In this document: piece by piece, positions 1 through 19,380 of the stretch
Layout of the letters: every line of letters starts with the position of its first letter
Position numbering within the stretch: the stretch's first letter is position 1
From: a virus
IMG/VR virus record: IMGVR_UViG_3300037070_001066
Span: 1 to 64,000 of that record
DNA: 64,000 nt
Strand: one strand, 5' to 3'
The notes under the pieces: model-generated
Databases searched by the model: none
What the model was told of the DNA's origin: nothing
What the model saw: only the letters and a program-made list of their open reading frames with translations
Program-made: the position numbers and the translations under genes

Positions 1-122
1 GGAGCAGTTGTCAATGGAGAAATCAATTGTGGTTGTGTACCAAAAATTGCTCCAATGTGATTTTTTAATGTAAGGCCAGACCATGCCTTGCCTTTAATCA
101 TTACAAACTTGCCTAAACTCAT
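1..122 (-). CDS. Major capsid protein, N-terminal fragment (runs off the window)
   Basis: ATG at 122 gives MSLGKFVMIKGKAWSGLTLKNHIGAIFGTQPQLISPLTTA, resembling the crAss-like MCP N-terminus (LGKF..W.GLT..NH.GAIF...PQ). It follows terminase, portal and scaffold-like genes. Confidence 0.85.
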   Translation of the reverse strand, partial: MSLGKFVMIKGKAWSGLTLKNHIGAIFGTQPQLISPLTTA

Positions 123-150
123 TTAATTTTAATTTTAATTTATTATTTAT

Positions 151-1206
151 TTATAACACTAATTCAGAACCAAAGGAACCTCCGTAACTATTAGGATCAG
201 TCATAAAGTCTGGCGTTTTACCATCACCTTCAAAACTAGTCTTACGTAAAGCTTTCTCTAAATTCTTCGTTGCCTTAGATGTAACAGTGGTTTGAAACTT
301 ACCTAAATCAGTAAATCCATTAGTCAGCTCATAAAAGTAATACATCTTAGTATCAAATTTAATTGGATCTAATGAACGTTCTTTCATTAACTTATTCTCA
401 AGTTCACCTGTATTTGGATTCTTACTTACAATCTCAGTCATACTCTTATATACAGCAGTCTGCATTGCTTTAGTGTTAGGAATCCCCTTAACTATTTCAG
501 GAGAGTCAAAGATATAACCTTTGATAGCCTTGTCGATTTGTTCTTGCTCTAGTCTAGCATCTTTAATAGATTGCTCATAACGAGATCTTTCGTACTCCTC
601 TTGTCGTCTTTCAAATTCTTTTAAACTCTCTCTAGATTCAAGTGCGTCCTCTACTATAGTATCTTCACCTAAATCAATTGTTTTCTTAAGTATCTTTCTT
701 GCTCTATCTTCAGATAGACCTTGGTTCATTGCGTCTCTAAATATAATCTCTTTAGCTACTTCTAGATTGTTTCTAAGGAAATCCTCATCTATACTATCTA
801 ACTCCATTACATTTCTTCGAGACTCTGCAATCTTACTTACATCAAGGTTATCTAGATATTCATTTAATCTATTCTGAGCCTGAATATCAATCTCTTGTTT
901 AACAACTCCAACTAAATCGTCAGGTGTTAATATTTTATCAGAAGACTCTAGTGAAGGAATAATTCCTTGTTCAAAAAGAACATTGGCTAGGGAAGAATAA
1001 AGGTTGGGAGAAGATTCATCGCCTGAATCATCCTCTTCACTATCATCGCCTTCTTCCCCATCTACGTTCTCCGGATTTTCCTCCTCGACAGGTTCATTAT
1101 CATTAATTATATCATCGTCTTGTTCTTCGACATCATCGTCAAAGCCGTCGTAACTTAGTTCCATACCAGAACCAAATATTGACATTAAATCGTCATTCTC
1201 TTCCAT
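151..1206 (-). CDS. Acidic coiled-coil protein between portal and MCP (putative scaffold/head assembly protein)
   Basis: 351 aa, very D/E-rich N-terminus, helical body; conserved portal-X-MCP position. Confidence 0.65.
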   Translation of the reverse strand: MEENDDLMSIFGSGMELSYDGFDDDVEEQDDDIINDNEPVEEENPENVDGEEGDDSEEDDSGDESSPNLYSSLANVLFEQGIIPSLESSDKILTPDDLVGVVKQEIDIQAQNRLNEYLDNLDVSKIAESRRNVMELDSIDEDFLRNNLEVAKEIIFRDAMNQGLSEDRARKILKKTIDLGEDTIVEDALESRESLKEFERRQEEYERSRYEQSIKDARLEQEQIDKAIKGYIFDSPEIVKGIPNTKAMQTAVYKSMTEIVSKNPNTGELENKLMKERSLDPIKFDTKMYYFYELTNGFTDLGKFQTTVTSKATKNLEKALRKTSFEGDGKTPDFMTDPNSYGGSFGSELVL

Positions 1207-1232
1207 AATTCTCCCATTTATTATAAAGTTAG

Positions 1233-1308
1233 CAAATATAACATAAAACTATTTTTTTTCCAAACAAAATCACAAATATTTTGATAAATTTGATATTAAG
1301 TAATAGCT
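1233..1308 (-). promoter_or_regulatory. Bacteroidota-type promoter (TTTG-N20-TATATTTG) with upstream AGCTATTACTTAAT box; drives scaffold/MCP
   Basis: + strand CAAATATA 1233-1240, CAAA 1261-1264, ATTAAGTAATAGCT 1295-1308. Confidence 0.75.
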
Positions 1309-1309
1309 T

Positions 1310-3718
1310 TTATTTAGTTGTGGTTTTCTTCTTGATTCTAGATATGGAGTTAGATTCTTTTTTAAGCACTACATCGTCTGCATGTTTCTTCATGTCATTG
1401 TCTAATGCTTTCATTTTAAGAATGTAATCATCTCTTCTTTTTTGAACATCTAAATCAAACTTGTCTCTAGCAAGAGGATCTTCAATACCATCTTCGGCTT
1501 CAACTTCACCATCACCTACTGAAGCACTAAGTTCAGCTATATAACGTTTAGTATCATTATCTCTTTGATTAAGCATATCTTCTTGTTGCATTTTTTTATT
1601 CTCTAGATCAGCTTGTTGAGCCATTGCAGCTTGTTGGTCTTTAGATTGTTGTTGAGAAGCTTCTTGTGCTCTTTGATGTTGCAACTCTTCTGCTTCCTCT
1701 AATCTTCTTCTCATGTCCATTAATGAAGGGCTAAAGTAAATATCCATAATAGTAGACATGCTTCCGCCATTTTGAACGAATGCTTGTGCGCTTTGCTTAA
1801 TGAATTGTTCAAGCTCTTGTGTTTTACTAGAATTGGTACAAACTATCCCATAGTCATTTTCAGAGAACTCATCTCCTTCTAAATTAAGAATTTGAATAGA
1901 CTGATCATCTAGAATGTATTGGACTTTCTTATTGTTACCTTTCAATGCTATCTTAGCTGTCTCAAGGAATGTTTCAAGTACTCTTAACTTACACTCTTCA
2001 TGTAACATAAACCAATACTCTGTAATATGGCTAGACTGATTAACAGATCTTTCTACACCACCTACAGTCTCTCTATTACTAATTTGACCTTGACGTTGCG
2101 CTGTAACACCAGCAATCTCACCCATCTCCATTTTAATAAACTCAAGCAATTGAATGTGTTGTTGAATGTAAGAACCTGTCTCCATATCTATTACACGTCC
2201 ACCTTGAGTATTCATAGAACCAGCAAGCTTACCTGTAGCGGCACCTTGATTTCCCTCTTTAAACGAGTCGATCACAGCAATCTTATTTACGACTGCGAAG
2301 TGCATCCATTTATCAATCTCCCAGTTCTCAGGTACCTTAGCGATGTCTAATTCAAAGATCTTACCGTAGTTAGAAGCAATAGCCTTATTAAGTCTATCCC
2401 AAATAACATCATACATGTATTGGTAATTCTTACATCTATCTACTAGAGATACTGCTTTAGATTGATTAGTATTGTAAATCTGTCCTACAATCCCAGGACT
2501 ACATATTGATGGATTGTTTATTCTATTATATTGAACTTTACGTGGTTTAACATTTAGATAAATATCTTTACCTATCTTAACACCTTCCCACCATTCATTC
2601 ACCCATAGCTTCTCAACTTCTTCTCCTAATGTTGGATCTGGTATATATTCTTCTGATGCAATTTTAGATTGCTCATTACCATACTCATCATAGAATTTAA
2701 CTTTCTTAATCTGTTTAATTGATTTCCAGAACACTTTTAATACACGTATGTTGCCTGTATCATCTGTATAGTTAGATCCAAAGAAGTGACCATTAAGTTC
2801 AGCTAAGTTAAAGATTGTGTCATACATTCCTTCTACGCCAGTATTCAATGCATCACGTAACAATACGTGGTTGTTCTGATCATCTGAATAACTTCCTTTA
2901 GATGAAGTTGTAGAATACTCTAAGATATAATCTATATCCTCAGGTTTCAATTCATCATGATAGTTATCTATAATCTTATTAGGAGACCAGTGATCTTGTA
3001 TAATAATAATAGAAGAGTCTTCTATTCTGTCTGAATTACCTGATCTAACTGAGTGAACCTTAAGTGGATTAAGTTTAATAAGAACAGGTTCGTCTTGAAC
3101 TATATCACATTGATAGATCTCTTCAGCAAAGATTAAAGCATCTTTAAATCCATCATTAAATGTTCTTGCGAATCGTTGTTCTTGGTAATAGTGTCTTATA
3201 ATTTGATTTGCTGTCTTCTCTCTAATGTCTTGCCAAGTATACTTCATATGCTTACCAAGTTCTTCCATCTTAGCCTTTAACTCATCATCTTGATAGTTGG
3301 CTTCAAAGAACTCTTGCATCCTTTGTAAGAGAAAAGCTTTCTTGTCTTCCTCTTTCTTAGATATAGCATCTGGATTTGTAACTACAAAAGACCAATCAAA
3401 TCTTCTTTTAATTTCCTCACCTACTAATAGATCTATCTTAGGTACTAATATAGGATTGTGAGGCAAATTATCTGGTACGAAACTAGCATCTATCTGATGT
3501 GGATTAACCACATTAGTTAAATCTCTAATGTCAACAATACCATTATATAAATTAAGGTTTATAATTTTGTTTTGCAAACTCTTTCTAACCCTTTCATTAT
3601 TGTAGAATGAGTGTCTGTCTGCATAGTCAATGTTACTGATCCTCCATTCCTTAGTCTTCTCCTTGTAAGGAAGACGCTGTCTAGGCATTATCAGACTATT
3701 AATCATTGGTACTGGCAT
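1310..3718 (-). CDS. Portal protein (crAss-like)
   Basis: 802 aa, downstream of TerL; N-terminal PRQRLP..K..EW, GEEIKR, EIAGVTAQRQG motifs and Q-rich coiled-coil C-terminus. Confidence 0.85.
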   Translation of the reverse strand: MPVPMINSLIMPRQRLPYKEKTKEWRISNIDYADRHSFYNNERVRKSLQNKIINLNLYNGIVDIRDLTNVVNPHQIDASFVPDNLPHNPILVPKIDLLVGEEIKRRFDWSFVVTNPDAISKKEEDKKAFLLQRMQEFFEANYQDDELKAKMEELGKHMKYTWQDIREKTANQIIRHYYQEQRFARTFNDGFKDALIFAEEIYQCDIVQDEPVLIKLNPLKVHSVRSGNSDRIEDSSIIIIQDHWSPNKIIDNYHDELKPEDIDYILEYSTTSSKGSYSDDQNNHVLLRDALNTGVEGMYDTIFNLAELNGHFFGSNYTDDTGNIRVLKVFWKSIKQIKKVKFYDEYGNEQSKIASEEYIPDPTLGEEVEKLWVNEWWEGVKIGKDIYLNVKPRKVQYNRINNPSICSPGIVGQIYNTNQSKAVSLVDRCKNYQYMYDVIWDRLNKAIASNYGKIFELDIAKVPENWEIDKWMHFAVVNKIAVIDSFKEGNQGAATGKLAGSMNTQGGRVIDMETGSYIQQHIQLLEFIKMEMGEIAGVTAQRQGQISNRETVGGVERSVNQSSHITEYWFMLHEECKLRVLETFLETAKIALKGNNKKVQYILDDQSIQILNLEGDEFSENDYGIVCTNSSKTQELEQFIKQSAQAFVQNGGSMSTIMDIYFSPSLMDMRRRLEEAEELQHQRAQEASQQQSKDQQAAMAQQADLENKKMQQEDMLNQRDNDTKRYIAELSASVGDGEVEAEDGIEDPLARDKFDLDVQKRRDDYILKMKALDNDMKKHADDVVLKKESNSISRIKKKTTTK

Positions 3719-3749
3719 ATCAATAAATTTATTTAATTAATTTAACCCG

Positions 3750-3825
3750 CAAATATAATACATTTTTCTTCTAAATGCAAACTATTATTGGGTTATTATC
3801 AAAATGTTAATATTAAGTAATAGCT
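3750..3825 (-). promoter_or_regulatory. Bacteroidota-type promoter with upstream AGCTATTACTTAAT box; drives portal
   Basis: + strand CAAATATA 3750-3757, CAAA 3778-3781, ATTAAGTAATAGCT 3812-3825. Confidence 0.75.
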
Positions 3826-3826
3826 A

Positions 3827-6037
3827 TTATTTAAAATTCCTGCTAAAGAAAGGATCTTCTGATATCTTCTTAATGCGTTTATGTTCATTACTTTTAGCAG
3901 AATTAGTTCTTTTAACTCTATCCTCTCTAAGTATAAATAACATACCTGCAGAAGACACCCTATCGAAGTTACCATCTGAGTTCCAGGCAATACATTCTTC
4001 TAAGTAAGGAATAGTTCTAATAAGGTGTAAATTAAGTCTTTGATCTTCTTCATCTCCTTCGTTGTGTCTTTTTAACATAAATTGAGCTTGCAACAGTCTA
4101 CCCCACTTGTTAACTTCTTTGTTAGCATGTGTACCTTTAGCCTTATTTCCATATAGATTAGTTGCTTTAACCATATCCATATCTTTAAGAATTTGAGGAA
4201 CATCCGCTAAATAGTGTAAACAATTACGAGCATCAAAATAACTAAACAATCCTTTTAAATTAGATTCATAGTTAGCTTCACCATTATAAAACTTCAATAC
4301 ACGTAAGGCTGTTTCATATGCATCATTAGCAAGTCTAGGTCTACCAGTATACTCACAAACTATACGATCTGTGAATGTATCAAATCCGATAATACTAAAT
4401 AAAGAAGTACCGGTATCAGCATCAATAGGGTCAATTCCAAATATATATCTACCCCTTGTAACCACCCCTTCATTATTCTTCTTAGGCATCTCAAATATCT
4501 CAAGACATCCAGTTCTATCTGTATCTGAACTATCATAAGCTCTTAAAGGAAACTTATCTGTAGGCTTCCATTCAACATCTCCAGTAGTTCCATACACTAG
4601 TTCTCCAATATAATGCTCTGCAAGAAAAGCCTCTTTACGAGGTCCAATTGATTCAAGGTAGTCTTTTATATCAGCAACAGGAAACACTGTCCCCTCTGTA
4701 CGCATAATAGCCTCCTGAGGCGTGATAGGTTCCTCTGCCTTTCTCTGAGTAATAGCAGAAGCATCTGATGAACTATATTTAATAGTATGACGTTCCATTA
4801 ATAATTCAAGTATAGCCTTGATAATATCTGGCTCGCCTGTCTTAATATCATAACATCCATTTCTATTTAAATATGCTCCCCAAAAGAATCCACATTCAGT
4901 TTCTCCATGAGCTCCTTTATCATATACATTAGGCAGTCCATATATATTATATGCTGCAGGTCTATAGAACAGCTTTTCAGAACCTGAGAATGAAGCACCT
5001 TCAACACCTCCAGTTCCACCTGCTAACATAAATCCTGTATTCACACTACCATCCTGTACTGCTTTCAAGTTAACGTTCCAAGCTTTCTCTAGATTAGGAA
5101 ACAAACCATCTTCTTCATAATGAATTAATGGTCCTCTAATACCTCTAGCTTTATCTGGGTTATCCTTCATTGATATACAGAATACAGACGATAGGAGCCC
5201 TTTACGTGAACCATATTCATCTTTGTATCCTAACTGTACGTTCATCTCTTTTGTTGCATCTATCGTACGCATACGAGGCAATGGAGTGTGTTCAGCTATC
5301 CAGTCAAGACAGTCAAGTACCTTACCCCATATACCCTTATCACCAGAAAGGAAACCTTTATCTGATGCAAGGTGGAAGTTAGGATTACCTGATCCAGGAA
5401 ACACATACATGTTCCTAGGAGACTCAGATGCATTCTTGAAACTAAATCCAATACCCCTTGTCTTAAGTATCTTACCATGTTTACCTAGGCGCTTTGCTCT
5501 TGCTGTATAGTGATAGTATAGATAATCTCCTAACCATGTCTTAGCAAAGTCTTTAACACGCTCTCCTTGTGAACGTTCTTCTTTCTTACCTTGAGCAATA
5601 ACCTTAGCTAACCATATAGGACTATAGTTCCAATAGAAATACAGCTCTCCTGGAATCCATTCTCCATCTTCACGTACCATTCCATACTTCCAACGTTTAA
5701 GTTCTTCTCTCCAGAATTCAGCATATTCAGATTTAGGATTACTATTTGGCGCTATATTTGTATACTTACCATTACGCTTAAAGAACAATGATCGTTCTCT
5801 AAAGTAATCCATGTTCTCAAGTATATGAGGATTAGTTATATCTACAAGTTTGCGTCCATCATCATACATTGTATCTACAGGTCTATCTTTAACAAACCCA
5901 CGTATATGTTCAGGAGCAATAAGGTTCTTTAAGAACTTTACTGTAGCTAAATACTCTAATAGATTATCCCATACTTCTTTAGGTACTGAATTCTGAAGTT
6001 CTTCTGTTATAGGTGTTTGATATCTGTTTAATTCCAT
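3827..6037 (-). CDS. terL: Terminase large subunit
   Basis: 736 aa; LKTRGIGFS Walker A-like, IHYEEDG Walker B-like, GGTGG coupling motif, RNase H-like GIDPID...NFDRVS. Confidence 0.9.
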   Translation of the reverse strand: MELNRYQTPITEELQNSVPKEVWDNLLEYLATVKFLKNLIAPEHIRGFVKDRPVDTMYDDGRKLVDITNPHILENMDYFRERSLFFKRNGKYTNIAPNSNPKSEYAEFWREELKRWKYGMVREDGEWIPGELYFYWNYSPIWLAKVIAQGKKEERSQGERVKDFAKTWLGDYLYYHYTARAKRLGKHGKILKTRGIGFSFKNASESPRNMYVFPGSGNPNFHLASDKGFLSGDKGIWGKVLDCLDWIAEHTPLPRMRTIDATKEMNVQLGYKDEYGSRKGLLSSVFCISMKDNPDKARGIRGPLIHYEEDGLFPNLEKAWNVNLKAVQDGSVNTGFMLAGGTGGVEGASFSGSEKLFYRPAAYNIYGLPNVYDKGAHGETECGFFWGAYLNRNGCYDIKTGEPDIIKAILELLMERHTIKYSSSDASAITQRKAEEPITPQEAIMRTEGTVFPVADIKDYLESIGPRKEAFLAEHYIGELVYGTTGDVEWKPTDKFPLRAYDSSDTDRTGCLEIFEMPKKNNEGVVTRGRYIFGIDPIDADTGTSLFSIIGFDTFTDRIVCEYTGRPRLANDAYETALRVLKFYNGEANYESNLKGLFSYFDARNCLHYLADVPQILKDMDMVKATNLYGNKAKGTHANKEVNKWGRLLQAQFMLKRHNEGDEEDQRLNLHLIRTIPYLEECIAWNSDGNFDRVSSAGMLFILREDRVKRTNSAKSNEHKRIKKISEDPFFSRNFK

Positions 6038-7491
6038 ACGCTTGGATTAAGTACTATACAGTCTGTAGATAGTACAGTTTTAGCTACTGACGCTGCATTC
6101 TCTAATGCACACCTAGTAACCTTTAATGGATCTATAATGTTATTTAAAAACATATTCTTACTTGTATTAATCTTAGTTCCATTTGCAGCAATCATTCTAA
6201 ATGGAGAAGTAAGCGACTCTGTTATTTGAAACTCTGGAGTGTTTTCTAAATAATCACCAAAGAATAGTTCTAAAGATTTGTACAAAGCAACCCCTCCACC
6301 TTCCACAATACCTTCTTCTAATGCACATGCCACTGCAAGTACTGCATCATCATATCTATCTTTGCGTTCTTTCATTTCAATCTCAGACTTACCGCCTACA
6401 CGTATTAGTGTAGCCTTGGCTGTAAGGTTTTCAATTCTTTTATTTAGAAGGTTCTTGTCGTAGTCAGACAAGTCAGGCAAGTCAGACAATCCTTTAATAC
6501 CATTTACTATCTCATCTACGTTTATATCTTCATGTTTTACAAGTAAAGAATGATTCTTTGTAATTGTACAAGACTCCAGCTTGCCTAAACAGTTCGAATG
6601 AGCTGCTTTTCCTTGCGCTAGAGACACGATCTCTGCTCCAGTGAAGTCTGATATATCTCGAAGAAAATCTTTCCTTACAGGGCCAAATCCAGGAGTCTTA
6701 ATTACACACAGATTTATGTTGCCTGACATTACATTTGTCTCTAACTTACGCATCTCTTTCTCAGACACATGTTCTGCAATGATAAGTAATGATTCATCTA
6801 CAATAGATATCTTTGTCAGAATAGTCTTAAGTAGGTTCAGGTCTTCAATCTTACCATCAACAATCAATACGTGTGGATTACTAAACTCACATGTTTCTTT
6901 AGGAGTGTTTGCAAACCTTTTAGAGAAGAACGACACATCCAATTTCATACCACTAATTTCCTCAATAGCATCTTCCAGACTATTAGACTCTTCTACTTTA
7001 ACTATAGAAGAAAAATTATAAGCCTGTTGAATAATATTACCAATCTGTATATCGTTATTAGCAGATATACTAGCAACATATTTAATGTCTTCACGTTTTA
7101 ATTCTCTTGAATTATCTTTTAAGTGTTGTAATACTTTAGGAATTATATCTTCAAAGGCTTTGTTAATCTCAAGTGAGTTGTAGCCTTTAAGGTTTTGTAT
7201 AAATGCATTTGCCAATACTATTGCTGTAGTAGTTCCATCACCTGCTTGATCTACTGTTCGTTCTGCGACCTCTTTGACAAGGATCGCACCAAGCTGCTCA
7301 ATTGGATCTTTAAAGTTAATTGCTCTAGCAACTGACACTCCATCTTTTGTAACTCGTGGTTGTCCGTACTCATCACATATAATGACAGTTCTCCCACTTG
7401 GTCCCATTGTAGACGCAACTCCAGAATGCAACTTTCTGACTCCTTCGAATAATCTGTTTCTTGCTTCATCTGTAAAAAATATTTCTCCCAT
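6028..7491 (-). CDS. groEL: Phage-encoded group I chaperonin (GroEL-like)
   Basis: TMGPSGR, VTKDGVSVA, AGDGTTTA, KTPGFG, RYDDAV, GIVEGGG, IIDPLKV; 487 aa, no GGM tail. Confidence 0.93.
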   Translation of the reverse strand: MGEIFFTDEARNRLFEGVRKLHSGVASTMGPSGRTVIICDEYGQPRVTKDGVSVARAINFKDPIEQLGAILVKEVAERTVDQAGDGTTTAIVLANAFIQNLKGYNSLEINKAFEDIIPKVLQHLKDNSRELKREDIKYVASISANNDIQIGNIIQQAYNFSSIVKVEESNSLEDAIEEISGMKLDVSFFSKRFANTPKETCEFSNPHVLIVDGKIEDLNLLKTILTKISIVDESLLIIAEHVSEKEMRKLETNVMSGNINLCVIKTPGFGPVRKDFLRDISDFTGAEIVSLAQGKAAHSNCLGKLESCTITKNHSLLVKHEDINVDEIVNGIKGLSDLPDLSDYDKNLLNKRIENLTAKATLIRVGGKSEIEMKERKDRYDDAVLAVACALEEGIVEGGGVALYKSLELFFGDYLENTPEFQITESLTSPFRMIAANGTKINTSKNMFLNNIIDPLKVTRCALENAASVAKTVLSTDCIVLNPSVWN

Positions 7492-7493
7492 GA

Positions 7494-8060
7494 TTAATCT
7501 ATTACGAGACCATCCTCAAATAATCCCATTGTTCTACTTCCCCTAGTTCTTCCTTCTAATTCTTTTTGCTCAGCTAACACTTCTTTATAAGCAGCTTTTA
7601 AGTTCTGCATTATCTTTGGAAGCTTCTCTTGAGCAGTTGTAATCATAGGCAACGTAGTTACTGTTGCTCCATTATTAGTTCTCTCTCTTAATAGTTCATC
7701 TGTTATTCTAAGATACTCACTCATATCTCCTACAGATTTAAGTGCATCTTGATATAGTTTTCCAATAACACTTACACTTCTTTCTCTATAGAAAGCTATT
7801 GCTTCTTGTACTTGTCTATCCATTGTCCAATCTTCAGGTAGACCTACATCTTTAATTATCTCCTTTTCTCTTTCTAAATCATTTGTTATATACATATAGT
7901 CAGACCTAATATCTACATAGAAATATATAAATAACATTTCTTTAAATGCAGTTTCTTTATTCCTACTCTTGTCTTTCTTAAGTATAGCCTTGAATGGCAA
8001 TAGTCCCCATGCTTCTGGAGCAATTGTTAGACTGTAATCATGCATTTCAAATATCTTCAT
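7494..8060 (-). CDS. Helical protein upstream of GroEL/TerL (possible terminase small subunit); likely start at 8060 (MKIFEM)
   Basis: The listed ATG at 8090 lies inside a terminator hairpin; function inferred from position only. Confidence 0.45.
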   Translation of the reverse strand: MKIFEMHDYSLTIAPEAWGLLPFKAILKKDKSRNKETAFKEMLFIYFYVDIRSDYMYITNDLEREKEIIKDVGLPEDWTMDRQVQEAIAFYRERSVSVIGKLYQDALKSVGDMSEYLRITDELLRERTNNGATVTTLPMITTAQEKLPKIMQNLKAAYKEVLAEQKELEGRTRGSRTMGLFEDGLVID

Positions 8061-8073
8061 ATAATGTTGTTTT

Positions 8074-8105
8074 AAAAAACTATGCCCCATATAAAATATG
8101 AGGCT
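8074..8105 (-). terminator. Intrinsic terminator
   Basis: Minus strand GCCTCATAT-TTT-ATATGGGGC followed by ATAGTTTTTT. Confidence 0.6.
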
Positions 8106-8112
8106 AGTTCTA

Positions 8113-8271
8113 TTAACTTACTAAATCATGCAACTTCTTTGTTAATTCAATAATGTAATTATCTTTTTGCTTTAACTCGCTATTCAATTTTTCTATTTGA
8201 ATATCTTTAAACGCATTCATTGATACCAATGCAATTACTACAAATACTAGTATAATTACTGTGTATGCCAT
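8113..8271 (-). CDS. Small membrane-anchored coiled-coil protein (52 aa, not in ORF track)
   Basis: MAYTVIILVFVVIALVSMNAFKDIQIEKLNSELKQKDNYIIELTKKLHDLVS; fills the gap in the operon. Confidence 0.55.
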   Translation of the reverse strand: MAYTVIILVFVVIALVSMNAFKDIQIEKLNSELKQKDNYIIELTKKLHDLVS

Positions 8272-8272
8272 C

Positions 8273-8470
8273 TTATGCTTTTTTAGCACGAACCTTTTTA
8301 ACAGGAACTTCTTTCTCTACTACTGGTTCAGATAAATCTTCATACTGACCAATAAACTTAACTACTGCGTCAAATGAATTAATAACTACTATTGCCTCTT
8401 GCAATGTAAATGCTCCAGACTTGTTTGCTGCGTTCAACGCGTTGTTTAATGTAATCAAATTCTCTCTCAT
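8273..8470 (-). CDS. Hypothetical protein (likely start MRENL)
   Basis: Tightly packed in the operon. Confidence 0.5.
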   Translation of the reverse strand: MRENLITLNNALNAANKSGAFTLQEAIVVINSFDAVVKFIGQYEDLSEPVVEKEVPVKKVRAKKA

Positions 8471-8474
8471 AATC

Positions 8475-8843
8475 TTATCTATTATCTTTTGCTTTAATAA
8501 GTCTTTCATCTATTAGTGCATAAGGCACTCCATCTATTTCATATAAATCAACCTTAACCTGCATAACTGCTTCGTATGCATTATTGTCTTCCGACTTTGT
8601 GGCAACCATCATTCTTTCAATATCGATGATTACTTTTTGACCTGGAGATACTTTAATATTCTTCCATTGTATTTCTCCTGCAACTACATATTGAACATCA
8701 TCTAATACATTATCTGAAAATATCAATACACCATCTTCTTCTGCTTTATTCAAAGTAATGAATACTTTACCAAATAAAGGTTCTAAAGGAAATACATTTA
8801 TAACATCTAATACATCATCTTGATTCATTCTCTCTTCTCCCAT
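8475..8843 (-). CDS. GroES/Cpn10-like co-chaperonin
   Basis: LEPLFGKVFI...DGVLI...VVAG...VSPGQKVII...IDGVPYALIDERLIKAK follows the GroES pattern (PL.DRV.V...GII...VVAVG...V..GD.V...DG.EY.I..E.DI.A). Confidence 0.6.
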   Translation of the reverse strand: MGEERMNQDDVLDVINVFPLEPLFGKVFITLNKAEEDGVLIFSDNVLDDVQYVVAGEIQWKNIKVSPGQKVIIDIERMMVATKSEDNNAYEAVMQVKVDLYEIDGVPYALIDERLIKAKDNR

Positions 8844-9112
8844 TTCTCTATCAAATTACTTTTTTGTTTCTTAATCTTTTCATATACCATAAAATTAGTA
8901 TATAACTTTCCAATGTGTGTATATATAAAATTAGTTTTAAGTTCTTTAAATTCCTCTTCAGTCATATTATCTTTTACATCTAAATTAGAAATAGTTTCTC
9001 TTGTGAACTTAAACTGAGCTTGTACTATCTTCTTGACAATATCATCCTGTAAGTTAAACTCTAATCCTATACTATGTATTAATTTCTTAAGTCTAGGATC
9101 CTCCGCTTTCAT
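8825..9112 (-). CDS. IHF/HU-like DNA-binding protein
   Basis: Basic 95 aa; helix-helix (LIHSIGLEFNLQDDIVKKIV) then NFIYTHIGKLY, like the HU/IHF beta-arm start. Confidence 0.5.
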   Translation of the reverse strand: MKAEDPRLKKLIHSIGLEFNLQDDIVKKIVQAQFKFTRETISNLDVKDNMTEEEFKELKTNFIYTHIGKLYTNFMVYEKIKKQKSNLIEKWEKRE

Positions 9113-9500
9113 TATCTACTATGTTAAAGTTAAATATTAATTTAAAGTTCTTTGCTTTTAAATCTAATTCAGGTATATATACTTTAGATATCTCTCCATC
9201 TACTATAACATTCTTCTTTCTCAAGTTAGTTAATATAGTCTGTAGAGCACTATCTGATAAACCATTCTCAAATACATCATCTTCCTTTATCTTCAACTTA
9301 GTATCGTAATCAAACAATACTCTCCATAGTATCTTATTGTTGGTGATGTCCTTTCTGTATTGATAATGGTAGTATAGGAAAAGAGCTAATACTTGTTGTT
9401 GTTGATTATTCAGCTTATGAAAAGGCTTAGTTATCTCCATCCACTTAAAGAACAAGTCTTTAAGCTTTACATTCATATTAGCAACTTTACTATTACTCAT
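9093..9500 (-). CDS. Putative winged-helix DNA-binding protein (likely start MSNSK)
   Basis: LNNQQQQVLALF...LSDSALQTILTNLRKKNVI wHTH-like pattern. Confidence 0.45.
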   Translation of the reverse strand: MSNSKVANMNVKLKDLFFKWMEITKPFHKLNNQQQQVLALFLYYHYQYRKDITNNKILWRVLFDYDTKLKIKEDDVFENGLSDSALQTILTNLRKKNVIVDGEISKVYIPELDLKAKNFKLIFNFNIVDNESGGS

Positions 9501-9669
9501 CTTCTCTGTCTTTAATTGTTCCTTCTCTTTGAGTGCTAATTTCGCTTGCAACTATACCGCTTATAAGATTTAATTTATATTTAAGACTATTAATATCGCT
9601 TCGTTGTTTAGCACATAATTCTGCTAAACGTTTTATTAAGTCATCTTTATCTGCATCATCACTACTCAT
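9493..9669 (-). CDS. Small coiled-coil hypothetical protein (58 aa, not in ORF track)
   Basis: MSSDDADKDDLIKRLAELCAKQRSDINSLKYKLNL...; overlaps both neighbours as in translational coupling. Confidence 0.45.
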   Translation of the reverse strand: MSSDDADKDDLIKRLAELCAKQRSDINSLKYKLNLISGIVASEISTQREGTIKDREDE

Positions 9670-10324
9670 TCTCTAAATATTTAATTATATCTGTTAATAT
9701 AGGATTTCTATGATTGGCAGTCAATGTCTTGAATCCTACTAATCCAGATTCCTGTAGCTTCATAATTCTATGAAGACAACTATTCCCATTGATAGACTTA
9801 TCTATCTGCTCTTTAGAGCCACAGAAAATCATTTTTGATCCTTCACCTAGTCTAGTTAAAATAGTCCTGAAATCATTATAATCCATGTCTTGGAACTCAT
9901 CTACTATAACTACTGACTTAATAAACGTAACACCTTTAGCTACTTCAATAGGCATAATCTTAATCTCACCTTCTTTCAACATCTTGTCTGTAGCTTCTTT
10001 ACCTTGGCAAACTTCTAAATTCTGAATGATTGGAAACGTATATGGAGCCATCTTTTCTTCTAATGTACCTGGCAGTGCGGCTAGGTTATTCTTAAGCATT
10101 GGCCTTGTAATCCATATGTGGTCAATCTTGAACTCTCTACTTCTTTTTCTAAATGCTTTAAGTGCTGTATGTACAGCTGCTAAAGACTTTCCAGAACCAA
10201 AATCTCCTAATAGGAAATTAACATCATATTCGTAGAATAAAGCAACAAACTCTTTTTGCTCATCATTTAATTCTACCTTAAGTTTAGGTTCTGTTTTAAG
10301 AGGTTCTTTTAATGAATTAATCAT
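9662..10324 (-). CDS. phoH: PhoH-family ATPase
   Basis: GDFGSGKS, ITRP, LPGTLEEKMAPY, KGVTF, IVDEFQD, LTRLGEGSK, HRNP. Confidence 0.9.
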   Translation of the reverse strand: MINSLKEPLKTEPKLKVELNDEQKEFVALFYEYDVNFLLGDFGSGKSLAAVHTALKAFRKRSREFKIDHIWITRPMLKNNLAALPGTLEEKMAPYTFPIIQNLEVCQGKEATDKMLKEGEIKIMPIEVAKGVTFIKSVVIVDEFQDMDYNDFRTILTRLGEGSKMIFCGSKEQIDKSINGNSCLHRIMKLQESGLVGFKTLTANHRNPILTDIIKYLENE

Positions 10325-10640
10325 CTTTTGAATTTTTAAAGTTTAGGTATTCATTTATGTTATTAAAATTCTGTAACTCATTAATTGAGCCACAACGCAT
10401 ACATACGTTATTATCGACCTCATCTGAAACGATGTGTAAACTTTTACAAAATCTACAAGCCACTACTGGCTCCTCATCGTAATTTGTAATTTTATCTTCC
10501 ATTACTTCTCTTAATTTATTTTCAACGTCTTCAATATATTCTGAACCATAAATAGGAAATGGAGCTAAATTATCATAATATTTCAGGTGGCTCAATAAAC
10601 TCTTGAGAGCTGTCTCTATCTTTCTTTCCATACTTAACAT
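10317..10640 (-). CDS. Zinc-ribbon protein
   Basis: CRFCKSL...CMRCGS. Confidence 0.55.
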   Translation of the reverse strand: MLSMERKIETALKSLLSHLKYYDNLAPFPIYGSEYIEDVENKLREVMEDKITNYDEEPVVACRFCKSLHIVSDEVDNNVCMRCGSINELQNFNNINEYLNFKNSKDD

Positions 10641-10790
10641 GTATTTTAGCCTTCCATTTACTTTTATGTTGAGAAATATTAATTGAATAAGAATAATCCT
10701 TGTGTATTGTTTTAAATGGTTCTATAATACTTACAGCCTCATCTACCTTATCCAACACCCATTTTAATTCTGCTCCCTCTATAATATATA

Positions 10791-11078
10791 TCATATTCCA
10801 TTATCTGCTTTAAACTTAATCCAATCTTCATTACTCATTAGATTAGGAAACCTAGCTCCTTTGTTACAAGATTCTCCTACAGAAGTCTTTCCTCTAAAGT
10901 CACATCCACAATAAACACACTTGTTAGTTACTGCGCAATCATCCTTACATAGTAGTCTTCTATATACAATCTGCTCTCTTACATGTTCTGGTTGTAGTTT
11001 TAACTCCTCTAATATTAGTTGGGTATTACCTTCTAAATAAGAAAGTATATTAGTTATTGTTATCATTCTTCCTGTCAT
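10791..11078 (-). CDS. Cys-rich (zinc-binding) hypothetical protein
   Basis: CKDDC..NKCVYCGC...SC pattern. Confidence 0.55.
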   Translation of the reverse strand: MTGRMITITNILSYLEGNTQLILEELKLQPEHVREQIVYRRLLCKDDCAVTNKCVYCGCDFRGKTSVGESCNKGARFPNLMSNEDWIKFKADNGI

Positions 11079-12044
11079 TTATCTTACCTAATACTAAGAA
11101 CTTCTCCATAGGATCTAAGTCTCTATAGTCTAGATAATCATTTATATTGTCTTCATTGTATTCTATAGAGAGATCTACCTTATCTGCTAATGCTTGCATA
11201 TCATCCATTATCTTATAGAAAGCTTTAAGATGTGCTTTAACTTTTTTATCATTCTGAAGTTTATCCTTTCTGTATCCTTGCTTTAAAAAACTCATTAGTT
11301 ACATAGTTTTAAGTAATTAAACTCTGTTTCTTTTAACTCCATAAATCTAGACCTAGTCATCAATATTAAGTCAATCTCGAATTCAACGTCTACTTCATTA
11401 TTCTGAGGATAGGAGACCTTATTATCAACTAAATAGTAATATCTACTCATAGTGTCTCTGATCATCTTTTCCTTTAAACCATCTATATGATCTTTATGTA
11501 TTAAACCATTCTTTGACGGTAACGTATCTTTAACCACTTCTCTAATCTCTATCTCTAACTTCTGGTTCATATGTCTTCATTATAAGGTTTGAATCTACTA
11601 CTCTCTTGTCTCTTATTGTAATCTGTTCTCTTATTCTAGTATACTTATCAGCTACATAGATCTGAACTATATCTTCCTTCTCATTAAGTCTAAAGATACC
11701 AACATTAACGTCTAGTCTTCTATCCTTACTTCTATACTTATGTGTATAGTAATGAGACATATTAATCAAATCTTCCTGATGCCTTACTAAATCTTGTCTT
11801 ATGTAAAAATACAATTTCTCTATCATTACCTATAGTATATTTCAATGTTAAAAAATAATAAACCAATAACGAATCTATTCATTCTAATGATCTCTTCTCC
11901 TTCAATAGGATTACCATCATCATCAACTTTAAATCCTTCTAATGCTTGATTATAGAAACCTAGCATGATTTCAGTATTTTGGTCTCCCCATACAAACTCT
12001 AACCAAGTTGGTAATTTCATATCTATGATTTTTAAATTATAATA

Positions 12045-12076
12045 CAAAGGTATGTAAAAAAAATGACATATGCAAA
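12045..12076 (-). promoter_or_regulatory. Bacteroidota-type promoter (TTTG-N20-TACCTTTG)
   Basis: + strand CAAAGGTA 12045-12052 and CAAA 12073-12076. Confidence 0.65.
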
Positions 12077-12691
12077 TAAAATTGCAATTATTTTTTAAAA
12101 ATTTGGATGATCAGTTAATTCATACTCTGAACACACATATTCTGTATTCCATGTAGTAGCTACTGTATAAGCATACTTATCTATAGAAAACATATAAGTT
12201 ATCTCTACAATAACTCCCTTACCTGAATCAGGTGTAACATGATACACAGTATCTCCTATACTAAATTTGTTGCTTGTCATCTTTCCTATATTTATGGTTA
12301 TACAATTCTTCCAAATACTTATTAAACCCTTCTAAATTAAAACCTTTATGTGACGTCCACCTTCCCTTATCCAATGTATTACCATCAGGCAGTATTACCT
12401 TATACTGCGTATGTACTATACTTTTCTTCCATTCACTAAAGTTCTCCATATCTATTTAGTATATATACTGTAAACGCTTCATTGTCAAATCTCTGATTCA
12501 TGTCCATAAACAACTTAGCAAACGTTGTTGTCCCATCTGGAATAAGTATCGTATACTTACACTGCTTAATCCCCTTAACCCATTCTTTAAACCCTCTAGG
12601 TTGCCCTTCTCTAATTATAACTTCTGCTTCAAACCAAGGTTCTTGTTCTGAGCAATCTTCACTTACTTTTATCATTTCTCTTAATTTTAAA

Positions 12692-12723
12692 CAAAGATAC
12701 AAAATATTTATTTAATTTCCAAA
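12692..12723 (-). promoter_or_regulatory. Bacteroidota-type promoter (TTTG-N20-TATCTTTG)
   Basis: + strand CAAAGATA 12692-12699 and CAAA 12720-12723. Confidence 0.65.
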
Positions 12724-12742
12724 CTTTTTCTCACTTATTTTC

Positions 12743-12783
12743 AAAAAAAAAGTCCCTACAGCTTTTTTAAGGCCATAAGGACT
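12743..12783 (-). terminator. Intrinsic terminator closing the candidate ncRNA
   Basis: Minus strand GTCCTTATGGC-loop-GCTGTAGGGAC (11 bp including G-U pairs) followed by a long T run. Confidence 0.75.
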
Positions 12784-13030
12784 CTACCAAAGGTAGCACG
12801 GATCTTTAACTAATGTTGTTGTTGTATAAGGTTATATAATATATATAATATTTAACTATTAGGCATAAGAAGGTTTCCACGATTTTTGTCGTGAGCCTCT
12901 TGGCTAGCCAGTGTTGTAGAAGTTGTCATACCTTCAAAACCCGTTATCCCCCAAACTCATCCTGTGAGCAGTCCCGTTTCAATCTTTAAGGGGGCAACTA
13001 CATCCTAAACTAGTTGCTTAATATTTTACT
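12743..13030 (-). ncRNA. Candidate ~285-nt structured ncRNA
   Basis: Own promoter (13037-13112) and terminator; several stems; longest ATG-started ORF seen is 25 codons. Confidence 0.55.
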
Positions 13031-13036
13031 TGAGCA

Positions 13037-13112
13037 CAAAGATAATACATTAATTTGACATATGCAAGTATTTTGGCAATTATTTTCAATATATTTGTAT
13101 TAGGTAATAGCT
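13037..13112 (-). promoter_or_regulatory. Bacteroidota-type promoter (CTTG-N20-TATCTTTG) with upstream AGCTATTACCTAAT box
   Basis: + strand CAAAGATA 13037-13044, CAAG 13065-13068, ATTAGGTAATAGCT 13099-13112. Confidence 0.7.
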
Positions 13113-13277
13113 TTTATGAAAAATAGACTTTTTAAAATATTTTTTTCTAGAAAATTTTTCATGAATGTGAGAGTGGGCTAACCCAAGATCATACCCCGAC
13201 TCTTTTCAAATTTTGGGCATACCCGTTCACTTAGAGCGGCTTGCAAAAACATATCACAAACGTATAAATGTATTATT

Positions 13278-13823
13278 ATGGAAATTACGCAAAAGGTTGC
13301 AGAGAACATTATCGAGAGTAGAGTTATCATTGAGGAAGCTATGACACCATATAAAGGTGTTGAGGTTACATACGTAGGCTTTACTGACGCTGAGGGTGAA
13401 CAATTCTTATGGAATGATGAGGACGGTGACCCTGACCCATCTAGACCATTCGCTATTGTATCATTCAATGCTATGAACTTGCATTTGCTTGAGCAGAGTG
13501 TTGATGAGTATCAGGCAGGTATGTATGATGAGTGTGTGAACCACAACTTGTCAGTTCGTATGGACGCTGATAAAGCTCGTGAATTGTCTAAAGGCACTCC
13601 AGGTACGTTGATTTGTCATAATGTTCATCTTAAGGATGAGGATGGTGAATTGATGTACGATGAGAAGACTGAAGAGCCTGTTATGGGCTTGTTGGTGAAA
13701 AGCTTCGCTCCAGTAGCTGCTAAGTTTGCTAAGAAAGCTAGTCTTGCTGACATCTTGGCTAAAAGAGCTCCTAAGGAAGAGCCTAAGGCTGTACCTGAGA
13801 AAAAGGTGAAGATAACTGCCTAG
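13278..13823 (+). CDS. First rightward gene; acidic beta-rich protein with Lys-rich tail (possible nucleic-acid-binding protein)
   Basis: 181 aa, monocistronic with a strong terminator; visibly G-richer codon usage (GAG/AAG/TTG) than neighbours. Confidence 0.6.
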   Translation: MEITQKVAENIIESRVIIEEAMTPYKGVEVTYVGFTDAEGEQFLWNDEDGDPDPSRPFAIVSFNAMNLHLLEQSVDEYQAGMYDECVNHNLSVRMDADKARELSKGTPGTLICHNVHLKDEDGELMYDEKTEEPVMGLLVKSFAPVAAKFAKKASLADILAKRAPKEEPKAVPEKKVKITA

Positions 13824-13831
13824 ATTGAGAT

Positions 13832-13855
13832 TGCCCCTTCGGGGGCATTTCTTTT
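13832..13855 (+). terminator. Intrinsic terminator with UUCG loop
   Basis: TGCCCC-TTCG-GGGGCA-TTTCTTTT. Confidence 0.85.
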
Positions 13856-13890
13856 GACCTTTAGTGGTAAGATTAGCATCTAAATAAAGA

Positions 13891-14050
13891 GTGTTTACTT
13901 TGTCCTATATATGTTACCCGAGCTGTTTACCTTATGGTTACAGTATGTTTACGTTAGTGCTACGTGTGTCTACGTTGGTGCTCTCTGTGGGGTTACTATC
14001 GTTTACAGTATGGTTACTGCGTGTTTATAGTACGTGCTACGTGTGTTTAC
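13891..14050. repeat. Degenerate ~11-bp-period array of GTTTAC/GGTTAC/GCTAC units
   Basis: Units end at 13930, 13941, 13952, 13963, 13973, 13996, 14006, 14017, 14028, 14040, 14050; GTGCTACGTGTGT is repeated at 13957 and 14034. Confidence 0.75.
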
Positions 14051-19053: not shown

Positions 19054-19367
19054 GGGGCTGTTTTGGTTTTGACTGGTAGTGAGTAGGTAAATAGTTCAGT
19101 GAGAGATAACTCTAAACATAGGTGAATTGAATAAATGGAAAACAAATTGACGCCAATATGGCAAAAGTTCGTAGCTTAATCAACTCTGAGGAGTTTGAAT
19201 TAGCAGCATAATTATTCTAAAGATTTATCATTTAGATTAAAATGATTGGTGGATTGTTAGCTAAAACTAGTTAACCCCTTTGAACGTAACAATTTAAAAA
19301 CGTGAAACTGTATACAACTATTTAGCGAATGCTAATCAGGACGCGGGTTCGAATCCCGCCAGCTCCA
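19054..19367 (+). ncRNA. ssrA: tmRNA (SsrA); predicted tag (A)GKQIDANMAKVRSLINSEEFELAA at 19137-19211
   Basis: 5' GGGGCTG pairs with 3' CAGCTCC-A including G3-U; T-arm GCGGG-TTCGAAT-CCCGC; GAC before the T-arm; tag frame after ATAAAT ends LAA-stop. Confidence 0.92.
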
Positions 19368-19380
19368 CACTCCTAGAGTG

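What the first reader, a model, noticed from the sequence alone, without database searches (positions are those of the whole stretch)
1233..13112. Phage-specific promoter class: 14-bp box at exactly fixed spacing upstream of three host-type promoters
Seen: five minus-strand promoters fit the Bacteroidota -33 TTTG / -7 TAnnTTTG consensus with an identical 20-nt spacer (-7 boxes start at + coordinates 1233, 3750, 12045, 12692, 13037). Three also carry AGCTATTAC(T/C)TAAT, starting exactly 62 nt from the -7 box each time (1295, 3812, 13099). These three serve scaffold/MCP, portal and the candidate ncRNA; the other two lack the box. Inference: a binding site for a phage late activator that recruits host RNA polymerase. 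The wHTH/IHF-like proteins at 8825-9500 are candidates.
Basis: partly seen in the sequence, partly recalled or inferred. Interest (0 to 1): 0.75.

Follow-up and report, generated by a model that had tools for sequence, protein, structure and literature searches.

The report
Conserved upstream box at capsid-gene promoters
A short palindromic DNA box sits at a fixed distance upstream of the host-type promoters for the portal and capsid genes in this crAss-like phage and about 80 relatives, making it a likely docking site for a still unidentified regulator of late gene expression.

Summary
AGCTATTACYTAAT occurs exactly three times in the 104,771-bp genome (0.009 expected). Each copy starts 68 nt upstream of the T of a Bacteroidota -7 box (TAnnTTTG), and each promoter has a 20-nt -33/-7 spacer.

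The genome is a crAss-like phage whose closest isolate is Cellulophaga phage phi14:2. The CYTAAT half varies between lineages.

- **Conservation.** The core holds the same position (G of GCTAT at -67, rarely ±1) before the portal gene and the gp092-like/major-capsid operon in about 80 IMG/VR relatives and in phi14:2. The sequence between box and promoter has diverged.
- **Class specificity.** In phi14:2 the box is present at the two late promoters. It is absent from all four experimentally mapped middle promoters.
- **Not a host feature.** 151 Flavobacteriaceae genomes show no enrichment of box plus promoter.

The best reading is a cis-regulatory site for a sequence-specific, probably phage-encoded protein that controls host-RNA-polymerase transcription of the capsid module. 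Activation itself is not shown. The IHF-like claim is not supported.

The parts
1295..1311 (-). Distal box copy 1 (AAAAGCTATTACTTAAT). It begins 1 nt after the portal stop codon.
1233..1264 (-). Core promoter of the gp092-like/major-capsid operon: -33 TTTG at 1261-1264, 20-nt spacer, -7 TATATTTG at 1233-1240.
   Evidence: orthologous to phi14:2 P092
3812..3828 (-). Distal box copy 2 (AATAGCTATTACTTAAT). It forms the perfect 12-bp palindrome TAATAGCTATTA together with the T of the TerL stop codon.
3750..3781 (-). Core promoter of the portal gene: -33 TTTG at 3778-3781, -7 TATATTTG at 3750-3757.
   Evidence: orthologous to phi14:2 P093
13099..13115 (-). Distal box copy 3 (AAAAGCTATTACCTAAT). No co-oriented gene lies upstream.
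   Evidence: same site conserved in relatives G001 and G002
13037..13068 (-). Core promoter at the head of the leftward gene block: CTTG then CATATGTCA block, -7 TATCTTTG at 13037-13044.
12743..13030 (-). Stretch of about 290 nt without a sizeable ORF, downstream of the box-3 promoter, ending in a hairpin plus T9.
   Evidence: no Rfam family; fold no better than shuffles, z -0.81
12045..12076 (-). Box-less promoter (TTTGCATATGTCA..TACCTTTG), middle-type, like phi14:2 P108.
12692..12723 (-). Box-less promoter (TTTG-N20-TATCTTTG).
1310..3718 (-). Portal gene, served by the box-2 promoter.
   Evidence: phrog_6547, E 2e-162
151..1206 (-). Head-module gene homologous to phi14:2 g092, served by the box-1 promoter. 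The major capsid gene follows across the contig junction.
9093..9500 (-). Candidate trans factor: a 135-aa winged-helix-like protein conserved in all six genomes compared (phi14:2 g098 homologue).

Best explanation
The box is a distal cis-regulatory element of three host-type (Bacteroidota sigma-A, -33/-7) promoters. Its conserved core is AAWAGCTATTA, which contains a 10-bp palindrome centred 66.5 bp upstream of the T of TAnnTTTG. That is roughly -78 from the inferred transcription start. A sequence-specific protein most likely binds it and controls transcription of the capsid module (portal; the gp092-like plus major-capsid operon) by host RNA polymerase. In this lineage it also controls one promoter at the head of the leftward block.

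The binding protein is probably phage-encoded and made in the middle phase. The most likely action is class-I-like activation from an upstream site, which would give late timing and high output.

**Shown:** existence of the box, exact spacing, deep positional conservation, restriction to 2-3 promoters per genome, presence at late and absence from mapped middle promoters in phi14:2, and no enrichment in host-family genomes.

**Inferred:** protein binding, the sign of regulation, phage origin of the factor, and transcription start positions.

The leading but unproven candidate factor is the winged-helix-like protein at 9093-9500.
For: - **Rarity.** Three exact 14-mers against 0.009 expected, all at the same offset from a -7 box.
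- **Position in relatives.** Across non-identical relatives (portal 64-87% identical), the G of GCTAT sits at -67 in 60 of 74 post-portal and 35 of 46 pre-portal promoters. The rest sit at ±1 or -61.
- **Motif conservation.** Flanking positions A(-4) and A(-3) are 98% and about 90% conserved, while the 50 nt between box and -33 have diverged.
- **Spacing tracks the promoter.** The distance from stop codon to box varies from 2 to 163 nt. The distance from box to -7 is 67 in 47 of 54 unique sequences.
- **phi14:2.** CGCTATTAAAA lies 68-69 nt upstream of TATATTTG at P093 and P092. It is absent at P070, P075, P108 and P110.
- **Published context.** The phi14:2 preprint (10.1101/2020.03.07.982082) reports that middle and late genes are transcribed by rifampicin-sensitive host polymerase, that gp092 and gp093 are late, and that the four box-less promoters are middle.
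- **Few sites per genome.** Whole-genome scans of six genomes find only 2-3 box promoters each.
- **Host comparison.** 151 Flavobacteriaceae genomes gave about 80 matches against about 66 for the reversed-pattern control.
- **A different box in gut relatives.** Gut Steigviridae carry CAGTAAATTTAGT 63 or 73 nt upstream of the -7 box on the portal side. This fits a factor that co-evolves with the phage.
- **Candidate factor.** The model has pLDDT 88 and its top structural matches are nearly all winged-helix domains at Z 6-7. Homologues are annotated 'VpsT-like putative transcriptional regulator' and lie 4-6 kb upstream of portal on the same strand in crAss001-like phages. The gene is present in 41 of 47 relatives with enough flank.
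Against: - No transcription start, timing or binding data exist for this genome.
- The core promoters already look near-consensus, so a need for activation is not evident.
- The third copy sits on a promoter with the 'middle-type' block, and its positional equivalent in phi14:2 (P110) lacks the box. 'Late-specific' is therefore not clean.
- A 10-bp palindrome is short for a typical winged-helix dimer.
- Structural matches at Z 6-7 are only middling. DnaD-N-terminal-like winged helices often act as scaffolds rather than as sequence readers.
- The host of this phage is unknown. A host factor with few chromosomal sites would escape the enrichment test.
Confidence: 0.5

Rival explanations
1. Same protein-bound site, opposite sign. 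The box is an operator for a repressor or timing gate, for example an early or middle protein that holds capsid promoters off or blocks read-through from upstream.
For: The core promoters are near-consensus and might fire without help. In relative G001 a second strict promoter lies 94 nt upstream, so the box falls just downstream of that promoter's -7 box, a position that suits a roadblock. About 20% of post-portal promoters carry a second AATAG half-site abutting the -7 box.
Against: A site centred near -78 is unusual for a stand-alone repressor. The second half-site is absent from pre-portal promoters and from most relatives.
Confidence: 0.2
2. The box is bound by a host protein, either a nucleoid-associated protein or a transcription factor shared by Flavobacteriia, that the phage exploits. 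The model is Fis at -71 of E. coli rrnB P1.
For: The GCTAT core is invariant across phages that probably infect different hosts. A conserved host factor would explain that.
Against: Box plus promoter is not enriched in 151 Flavobacteriaceae genomes. Gut relatives that infect Bacteroides carry a different box at the equivalent place.
Confidence: 0.13
3. The box is the 5' foot of a terminator or cruciform hairpin that ends the upstream transcript and overlaps the next promoter. Its conservation would reflect structure, not protein recognition.
For: In 48% of post-portal and 32% of pre-portal regions of relatives, the stretch from box to -7 forms a strong inverted repeat (z below -2, as low as -7). 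The arms differ in sequence between relatives, and some of them pair AGCTAT with ATAGTT just before the -7 box.
Against: The three copies in this genome fold no better than shuffles (z 0.41, -0.56, 0.56). No terminator-like site is detected at these copies. The hairpin arms vary in position and often exclude the box. Copy 3 has no co-oriented upstream gene. The box sequence is invariant whereas the hairpin arms co-vary.
Confidence: 0.09
4. The box has no transcriptional role. It is a conserved gene-boundary sequence (a recombination or module-exchange junction) or a target of a DNA-modifying or nicking enzyme acting at AGCT.
For: It sits exactly at the ends of the TerL and portal genes and often overlaps the stop codon as TAG (25 of 55 unique sequences).
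Against: Its spacing is fixed relative to the -7 box, not to the stop codon. A third copy exists where no co-oriented gene ends. The bare 8-mer AGCTATTA is not enriched genome-wide (11 observed, 8.2 expected).
Confidence: 0.06

Closest known systems
phi14:2 / crAss-like 'extended tripartite' middle-late promoter motif (Drobysheva et al., bioRxiv 10.1101/2020.03.07.982082)
   Same: Same phage group and the same host-polymerase promoters. The paper notes the motif before homologues of gp092 and gp093 (portal), which are the genes served here. The A-rich block, the -33 and the -7 elements are all present in this genome.
   Different: The text describes three blocks, two of them -35- and -10-like. 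In my reading of the phi14:2 sequence, the third block is the A-rich stretch just upstream of -33. The GCTATTA box about 45 nt further upstream is not mentioned in the held text, and it is absent from the four promoters used for the published logo. The figure and the supplementary file could not be read.
Bacillus phage phi29 protein p4 at the late A3 promoter (established knowledge)
   Same: A phage regulator binds an inverted repeat centred about 80 bp upstream of a host-sigma late promoter, activates it through the polymerase alpha subunit, and represses a neighbouring early promoter.
   Different: The A3 promoter lacks a -35 element, whereas these promoters have a good -33. No homology to p4 was sought or found. 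The binding factor here is unknown.
Class I activation (CRP at -61.5/-71.5/-82.5) and Fis site I at -71 of rrnB P1 in E. coli (established knowledge)
   Same: A palindromic site upstream of the -35 region at a strictly kept distance from the core promoter.
   Different: The sigma and promoter type differ (Bacteroidota -33/-7). The palindrome here is only 10 bp. Dependence on helical face is untested, apart from the 63 versus 73 nt spacing seen in three gut phages.
T4 MotA box and sigma appropriation; N4 late transcription with N4SSB (established knowledge)
   Same: Phage factors that redirect host polymerase to a later gene class. N4 shares the overall strategy of a virion polymerase for early genes and host polymerase for late genes.
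   Different: The MotA box replaces the -35 element at -30, and N4SSB acts without a specific DNA site. The match of ORF 9093-9500 to the MotA N-terminal domain is weak (Z 6.1-6.3, rmsd about 6 A).

Membership tests
Bacteroidota primary-sigma promoter (-33 TTTG / -7 TAnnTTTG) | TAnnTTTG with TTTG/TTG 19-21 nt upstream | tested here: met
   All five window promoters and the sixth at 83715 have a 20-nt spacer. Promoter 13044 has CTTG.
Bacteroidota primary-sigma promoter (-33 TTTG / -7 TAnnTTTG) | Located in sense orientation shortly upstream of a gene or transcription unit | tested here: met
   Start codons lie 26-31 nt after the -7 box for portal and ORF 151-1206. The orthologous positions in phi14:2 are P093 and P092.
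Bacteroidota primary-sigma promoter (-33 TTTG / -7 TAnnTTTG) | A transcript 5' end a few nt downstream of the -7 box | not testable with these tools
   No RNA data are available. Published primer extension covers phi14:2 promoters only, and the figure is not readable here.
Upstream activator site of a class-I-type activator-dependent promoter | Specific conserved sequence upstream of the -35/-33 element at a fixed distance from the core promoter | tested here: met
   The G of GCTAT sits at -67 (±1) in nearly all of about 120 promoter instances.
Upstream activator site of a class-I-type activator-dependent promoter | Dyad symmetry consistent with a dimeric binder | tested here: inconclusive
   AAWAGCTATT is a 10-bp palindrome with both halves conserved. 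However, it is short and the flanks are asymmetric.
Upstream activator site of a class-I-type activator-dependent promoter | Core promoter too weak to fire without the activator | tested here: inconclusive
   This genome's promoters are near-consensus. Many relatives have TATATTAG or TATATTTA at the portal promoter.
Upstream activator site of a class-I-type activator-dependent promoter | An identified activator that binds the site and contacts the polymerase | not testable with these tools
   There is only a candidate, ORF 9093-9500.
UP element | A/T-rich tract between about -40 and -60, without a fixed G/C core | tested here: not met
   The box has an invariant GC and lies beyond -60 from the inferred start. 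A separate A-rich block occupies the UP-like position.
Intrinsic terminator | Stable stem-loop followed by a T run | tested here: not met
   No terminator-like site was found at the three copies. Fold z-scores are 0.41, -0.56 and 0.56. Many relatives do have hairpins downstream of the box.
   PF00216 has no hit in the whole genome while the control genomes ring. There is no Pfam or PHROG hit. The model is all-helical but low-confidence, pLDDT 65.
Winged-helix DNA-binding proteins (for ORF 9093-9500) | Three-helix bundle plus beta wing, matching solved winged-helix domains | tested here: inconclusive
   The model has pLDDT 88. The VIA-align list is dominated by winged-helix domains at Z 6-7. 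Foldseek found nothing at E 0.001 or better. There is no sequence hit to PDB.

The most novel reading that the evidence does not exclude
crAss-like phages of the Steigviridae time their host-polymerase transcription with a modular code of distal boxes. Short palindromes sit about 67 nt upstream of the -7 element and are read by small phage proteins made in the middle phase. The AAWAGCTATT box, read by the conserved winged-helix 'VpsT-like' protein, would be the switch that turns on the capsid module. Other boxes would serve other modules and lineages: ATTATACnGTATAAT at tail-side promoters and CAGTAAATTTAGT in gut phages. This would be the first defined middle-to-late switch in the crAss-like group.
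Probability: 0.25. Interest if true: 0.7.

Novelty: new member of a known kind. Interest (0 to 1): 0.55.

Why it matters
How crAss-like phages move from middle to late transcription while using the host polymerase is not known. The published phi14:2 work defined the core promoter but found nothing that separates the late class from the middle class.

This box is conserved, restricted to the capsid-module promoters, and absent from the four mapped middle promoters. It is therefore a concrete handle on that switch. It can be tested directly in the cultivable phi14:2 / Cellulophaga baltica system, and it offers a search rule for equivalent elements in the abundant gut crAss-like phages.

Tried and rejected
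- **Rfam.** A gathering-threshold scan of the window and an E-value scan of 12650-13300 found no family at the box or in the untranslated unit. Only the tmRNA was found.
- **Small ORFs 7494-11826.** PHROG and Pfam scans gave no DNA-binding family apart from a weak zinc-ribbon hit for 10317-10640.
- **HU/IHF.** The PF00216 search of the whole genome found nothing.
- **ORF 9093-9500.** Foldseek against PDB found nothing at E 0.001 or better. A PDB sequence-profile search found nothing. The protein atlas returned only viral hypothetical clusters.
- **ORF 8825-9112.** The structure model is too poor to use.
- **Megablast of 1-14000 against phages.** Only a short Kolpuevirus portal hit came back.
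- **The genome search 'relatives'.** Not available for a virus record.
- **Literature.** No held paper mentions a distal element at crAss-like late promoters or 'VpsT-like'. The Nature version of the phi14:2 paper and its supplementary file are not held.
- **Earlier findings.** A lookup by sequence found nothing.
- **Covariation.** Winged-helix recognition-helix residues did not separate cleanly between the GCTATTA and GCTATGG box groups, and the comparison is confounded by phylogeny.
Full report
**What the window is.** The window is the first 64 kb of a single 104,771-bp virus contig. Portal, large terminase, a GroEL-like protein and a PhoH-like protein are encoded on the minus strand of the first 13 kb. 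The closest cultured relative is Cellulophaga phage phi14:2, a crAss-like phage of the Steigviridae, at 57% portal identity. Gut crAss-like phages follow at about 47%. The first 546 nt and the last 542 nt of the contig are 92% identical, so the contig closes on itself. ORF 151-1206 is then followed by the major capsid gene at genome 102844-104346.

AGCTATTACYTAAT has three exact copies in the genome, all on the minus strand at 1295-1308, 3812-3825 and 13099-13112. A composition model expects 0.009. Each copy starts exactly 68 nt upstream of the T of a TAnnTTTG box, and each of those boxes has TTTG or CTTG 20 nt upstream. The two box-less promoters at 12045 and 12692 are also as described. A sixth promoter of the same strict type, also box-less, lies at genome 83715. 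It precedes an ORF followed by a homologue of the phi14:2 g069 region.

I fetched 80 loci around portal homologues from IMG/VR, with portal identity 64-87%.
- I anchored the promoter after the portal gene and the promoter before it on their -7 boxes. Nearly every locus then shows (A/T/C)GCTATTA, or GCTATGG in one clade, at the same place.
- The G of GCTAT is at -67 in 60 of 74 post-portal promoters and in 35 of 46 pre-portal promoters in which a GCTA(T/A) was found near the expected position. The rest are at ±1 or, rarely, -61. In 7 further pre-portal sequences none was found there; in at least six of them my script had picked a wrong -7 box.
- The position frequencies give A(98%) A(90%) W A G C T A T T(85%) A(85%) S n n A A. 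The core is therefore AAWAGCTATTA and contains the 10-bp palindrome AAWAGCTATT.
- The 50 nt between the box and the -33 element have diverged beyond recognition, yet their length is kept.
- The spacing tracks the promoter, not the upstream gene. The portal stop codon lies 2 to 163 nt from the G, while the G-to--7 distance is 67 in 47 of 54 unique sequences.

**The box is restricted to a few promoters.** I scanned this genome, four near-complete relatives and phi14:2 in full. Each has only two or three box-bearing promoters. These are the promoter before portal, the one before the gp092-like/capsid operon and, in three genomes including this one, a third at the head of the leftward gene block. 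The other strict promoters in these genomes lack the box. In this genome the third copy sits on a promoter that also carries the TTGCATATGTCA block. That block is shared with the box-less 12052 promoter and with phi14:2 P108.

**Link to experimental data in phi14:2.** The phi14:2 preprint (10.1101/2020.03.07.982082) makes four relevant points.
- Middle and late genes are transcribed leftward by the rifampicin-sensitive host polymerase.
- An extended tripartite motif, two blocks of which resemble -35 and -10 elements, lies before the middle genes g070, g075, g108 and g110.
- Similar motifs lie before homologues of the late genes gp092 and gp093 (portal).
- The capsid transcript is the most abundant.

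I read the phi14:2 sequence directly. P093 and P092 carry aaaCGCTATTAAAA 68-69 nt upstream of TATATTTG. The four mapped middle promoters have nothing similar at that position. In the one relative with timing data, the box therefore separates the two capsid-module late promoters from the mapped middle promoters. The held text does not mention this distal element. I could not read the figure, the supplementary file or the journal version, so prior description cannot be fully excluded.

**Phage-specific rather than host.** I searched 151 Flavobacteriaceae genomes, drawn evenly from the family, for AGCTATTA followed by 59-61 nt and then TAnnTTTG. By my tally this gave about 80 matches, against about 66 for the reversed-pattern control. 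Most matches look like coding sequence. That is about 0.5 per genome of 3-4 Mb, against 2-3 per 0.1 Mb in the phages.

Gut Steigviridae (IAS virus, DAC15 and a crAss001-like phage) lack GCTATTA. At the portal-side promoter they share a different exact 13-mer, CAGTAAATTTAGT, placed 63, 73 and 73 nt upstream of the -7 box. A lineage-specific box at an equivalent position fits a factor that evolves with the phage, although three genomes are few.

**Structure as a rival.** Folding the three regions of this genome gives energies no better than shuffles (z 0.41, -0.56, 0.56), and no terminator-like site is called there. About half of the post-portal and a third of the pre-portal regions of relatives do contain long inverted repeats between the box and the -7 element. 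Their arm sequences differ between relatives, and the 3' arm often includes the -33 TTTG. These look like terminators, or operators, overlapping the next promoter. They vary in position and often exclude the box, so they do not explain the box's invariance. They are nonetheless a real accompanying feature.

**Candidate factors.** Among the small genes between the 12-kb promoters and the terminase gene, three are conserved in all six genomes, including phi14:2: ORFs 9093-9551, 10317-10640 and 10791-11078.
- **ORF 9093-9500.** Homologues show that the first of these genes starts at 9500. Its AlphaFold model has mean pLDDT 88. Foldseek finds nothing significant. A full structural scan returns a list that is almost entirely winged-helix domains at Z 6-7: ORC, MukF, the DnaD N-terminal domain, LexA, MarR and the MotA N-terminal domain. 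That is a middling score.
- **Its relatives.** Homologues in crAss001, DAC17, IAS and other gut phages are about 34% identical and are annotated 'VpsT-like putative transcriptional regulator'. They lie a few kb upstream of portal on the same strand. The gene is present in 41 of 47 relatives with enough flank, and its putative recognition helix (LQNILTxLRKK) is well conserved. This makes it a reasonable candidate and nothing more.
- **ORF 8825-9112.** It gave a poor all-helical model.
- **IHF.** No HU/IHF profile match exists in the genome. The homologue of phi14:2's annotated IHF subunit lies at genome 89189-89656.

**Verdict.** The box is a genuine, deeply conserved distal promoter element of the capsid-module promoters in the phi14:2-like branch of crAss-like phages. 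The most economical mechanism is a binding site, centred near -78, for a phage protein that controls host-polymerase transcription of the portal and capsid operons. Activation is the likeliest sign, but repression or gating is not excluded. Mechanistically this is a familiar kind of element, comparable to phi29 p4 at the A3 promoter and to class I activator sites. Its value is that it gives the unexplained middle-to-late switch of crAss-like phages a specific, testable sequence.

Noticed in passing
window 19054-19370 (+): A phage-encoded tmRNA gene, called by both ARAGORN and Rfam (RF00023, 82 bits), with a predicted tag peptide ending in ELAA.
   Followed up: no
window 5-546 and genome 104229-104770: The two contig ends are 92% identical over about 542 nt. 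This points to a circular or terminally redundant genome assembled from two variants. ORF 151-1206 is partly duplicated at the far end.
   Followed up: partly
relatives L004, L013, L015, L017, L019, L021, L025, L028, L053, L058 and others, between box and -7 element: Long inverted repeats with non-conserved arm sequences (fold z as low as -7) whose 3' arm often contains the -33 TTTG. They look like terminator-promoter overlaps or operators. This genome's three copies lack them.
   Followed up: partly
G004 43755, G002 61611 and G003 80264 (loci L213, L220, L227); phi14:2 P070 and P075: Tail-side, box-less promoters carry a different palindrome at the same distal position: ATTATACAGTATAAT, ATTATACTACATAAT and ATTATAAACTATAAC. 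phi14:2 P070 and P075 share ATAGGT there. This may be a second class of distal box.
   Followed up: no
L231 (DAC15), L232 (IAS virus), L233 (PhiCrAssBcn22): Gut Steigviridae share an exact CAGTAAATTTAGT 63 or 73 nt upstream of the -7 box of the portal-side promoter. It overlaps the stop codon of whichever gene lies upstream, which is TerL in two phages and a DarB-like gene in DAC15.
   Followed up: partly
window 12053-12076 and 13045-13068 (-); phi14:2 P108: The block TTGCATATGTCA directly after the -33 element is shared by two promoters here and by a mapped middle promoter of phi14:2.
   Followed up: no
window 10317-10640 (-): A 107-aa protein with a weak zinc-ribbon match (DUF5817, E 7e-6; TFIIB-type ribbon, E 0.004), conserved in all six genomes compared. 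It is another possible regulator.
   Followed up: no
window 13877, 18360, 53856 (+); 35504, 42430, 57684 (-); further copies beyond 64 kb: C(C/A)TCTAAATAA occurs nine times in the genome on both strands. Its reverse complement reads TTATTTAGATG, so it may be a shared start-codon context on the other strand.
   Followed up: no
G001 79900-80446 and G002 98700-99252 (loci L208/L209, L221): In two relatives the third box-bearing promoter is followed by a leader of about 310 nt and then a 180-aa ORF that begins like a GIY-YIG/T5orf172-type protein. Their leader is not alignable with this genome's 290-nt unit.
   Followed up: partly
G001 80361-80455 (locus L209): Two strict promoters lie in tandem 94 nt apart. 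The box of the downstream promoter falls just after the -7 box of the upstream one.
   Followed up: no
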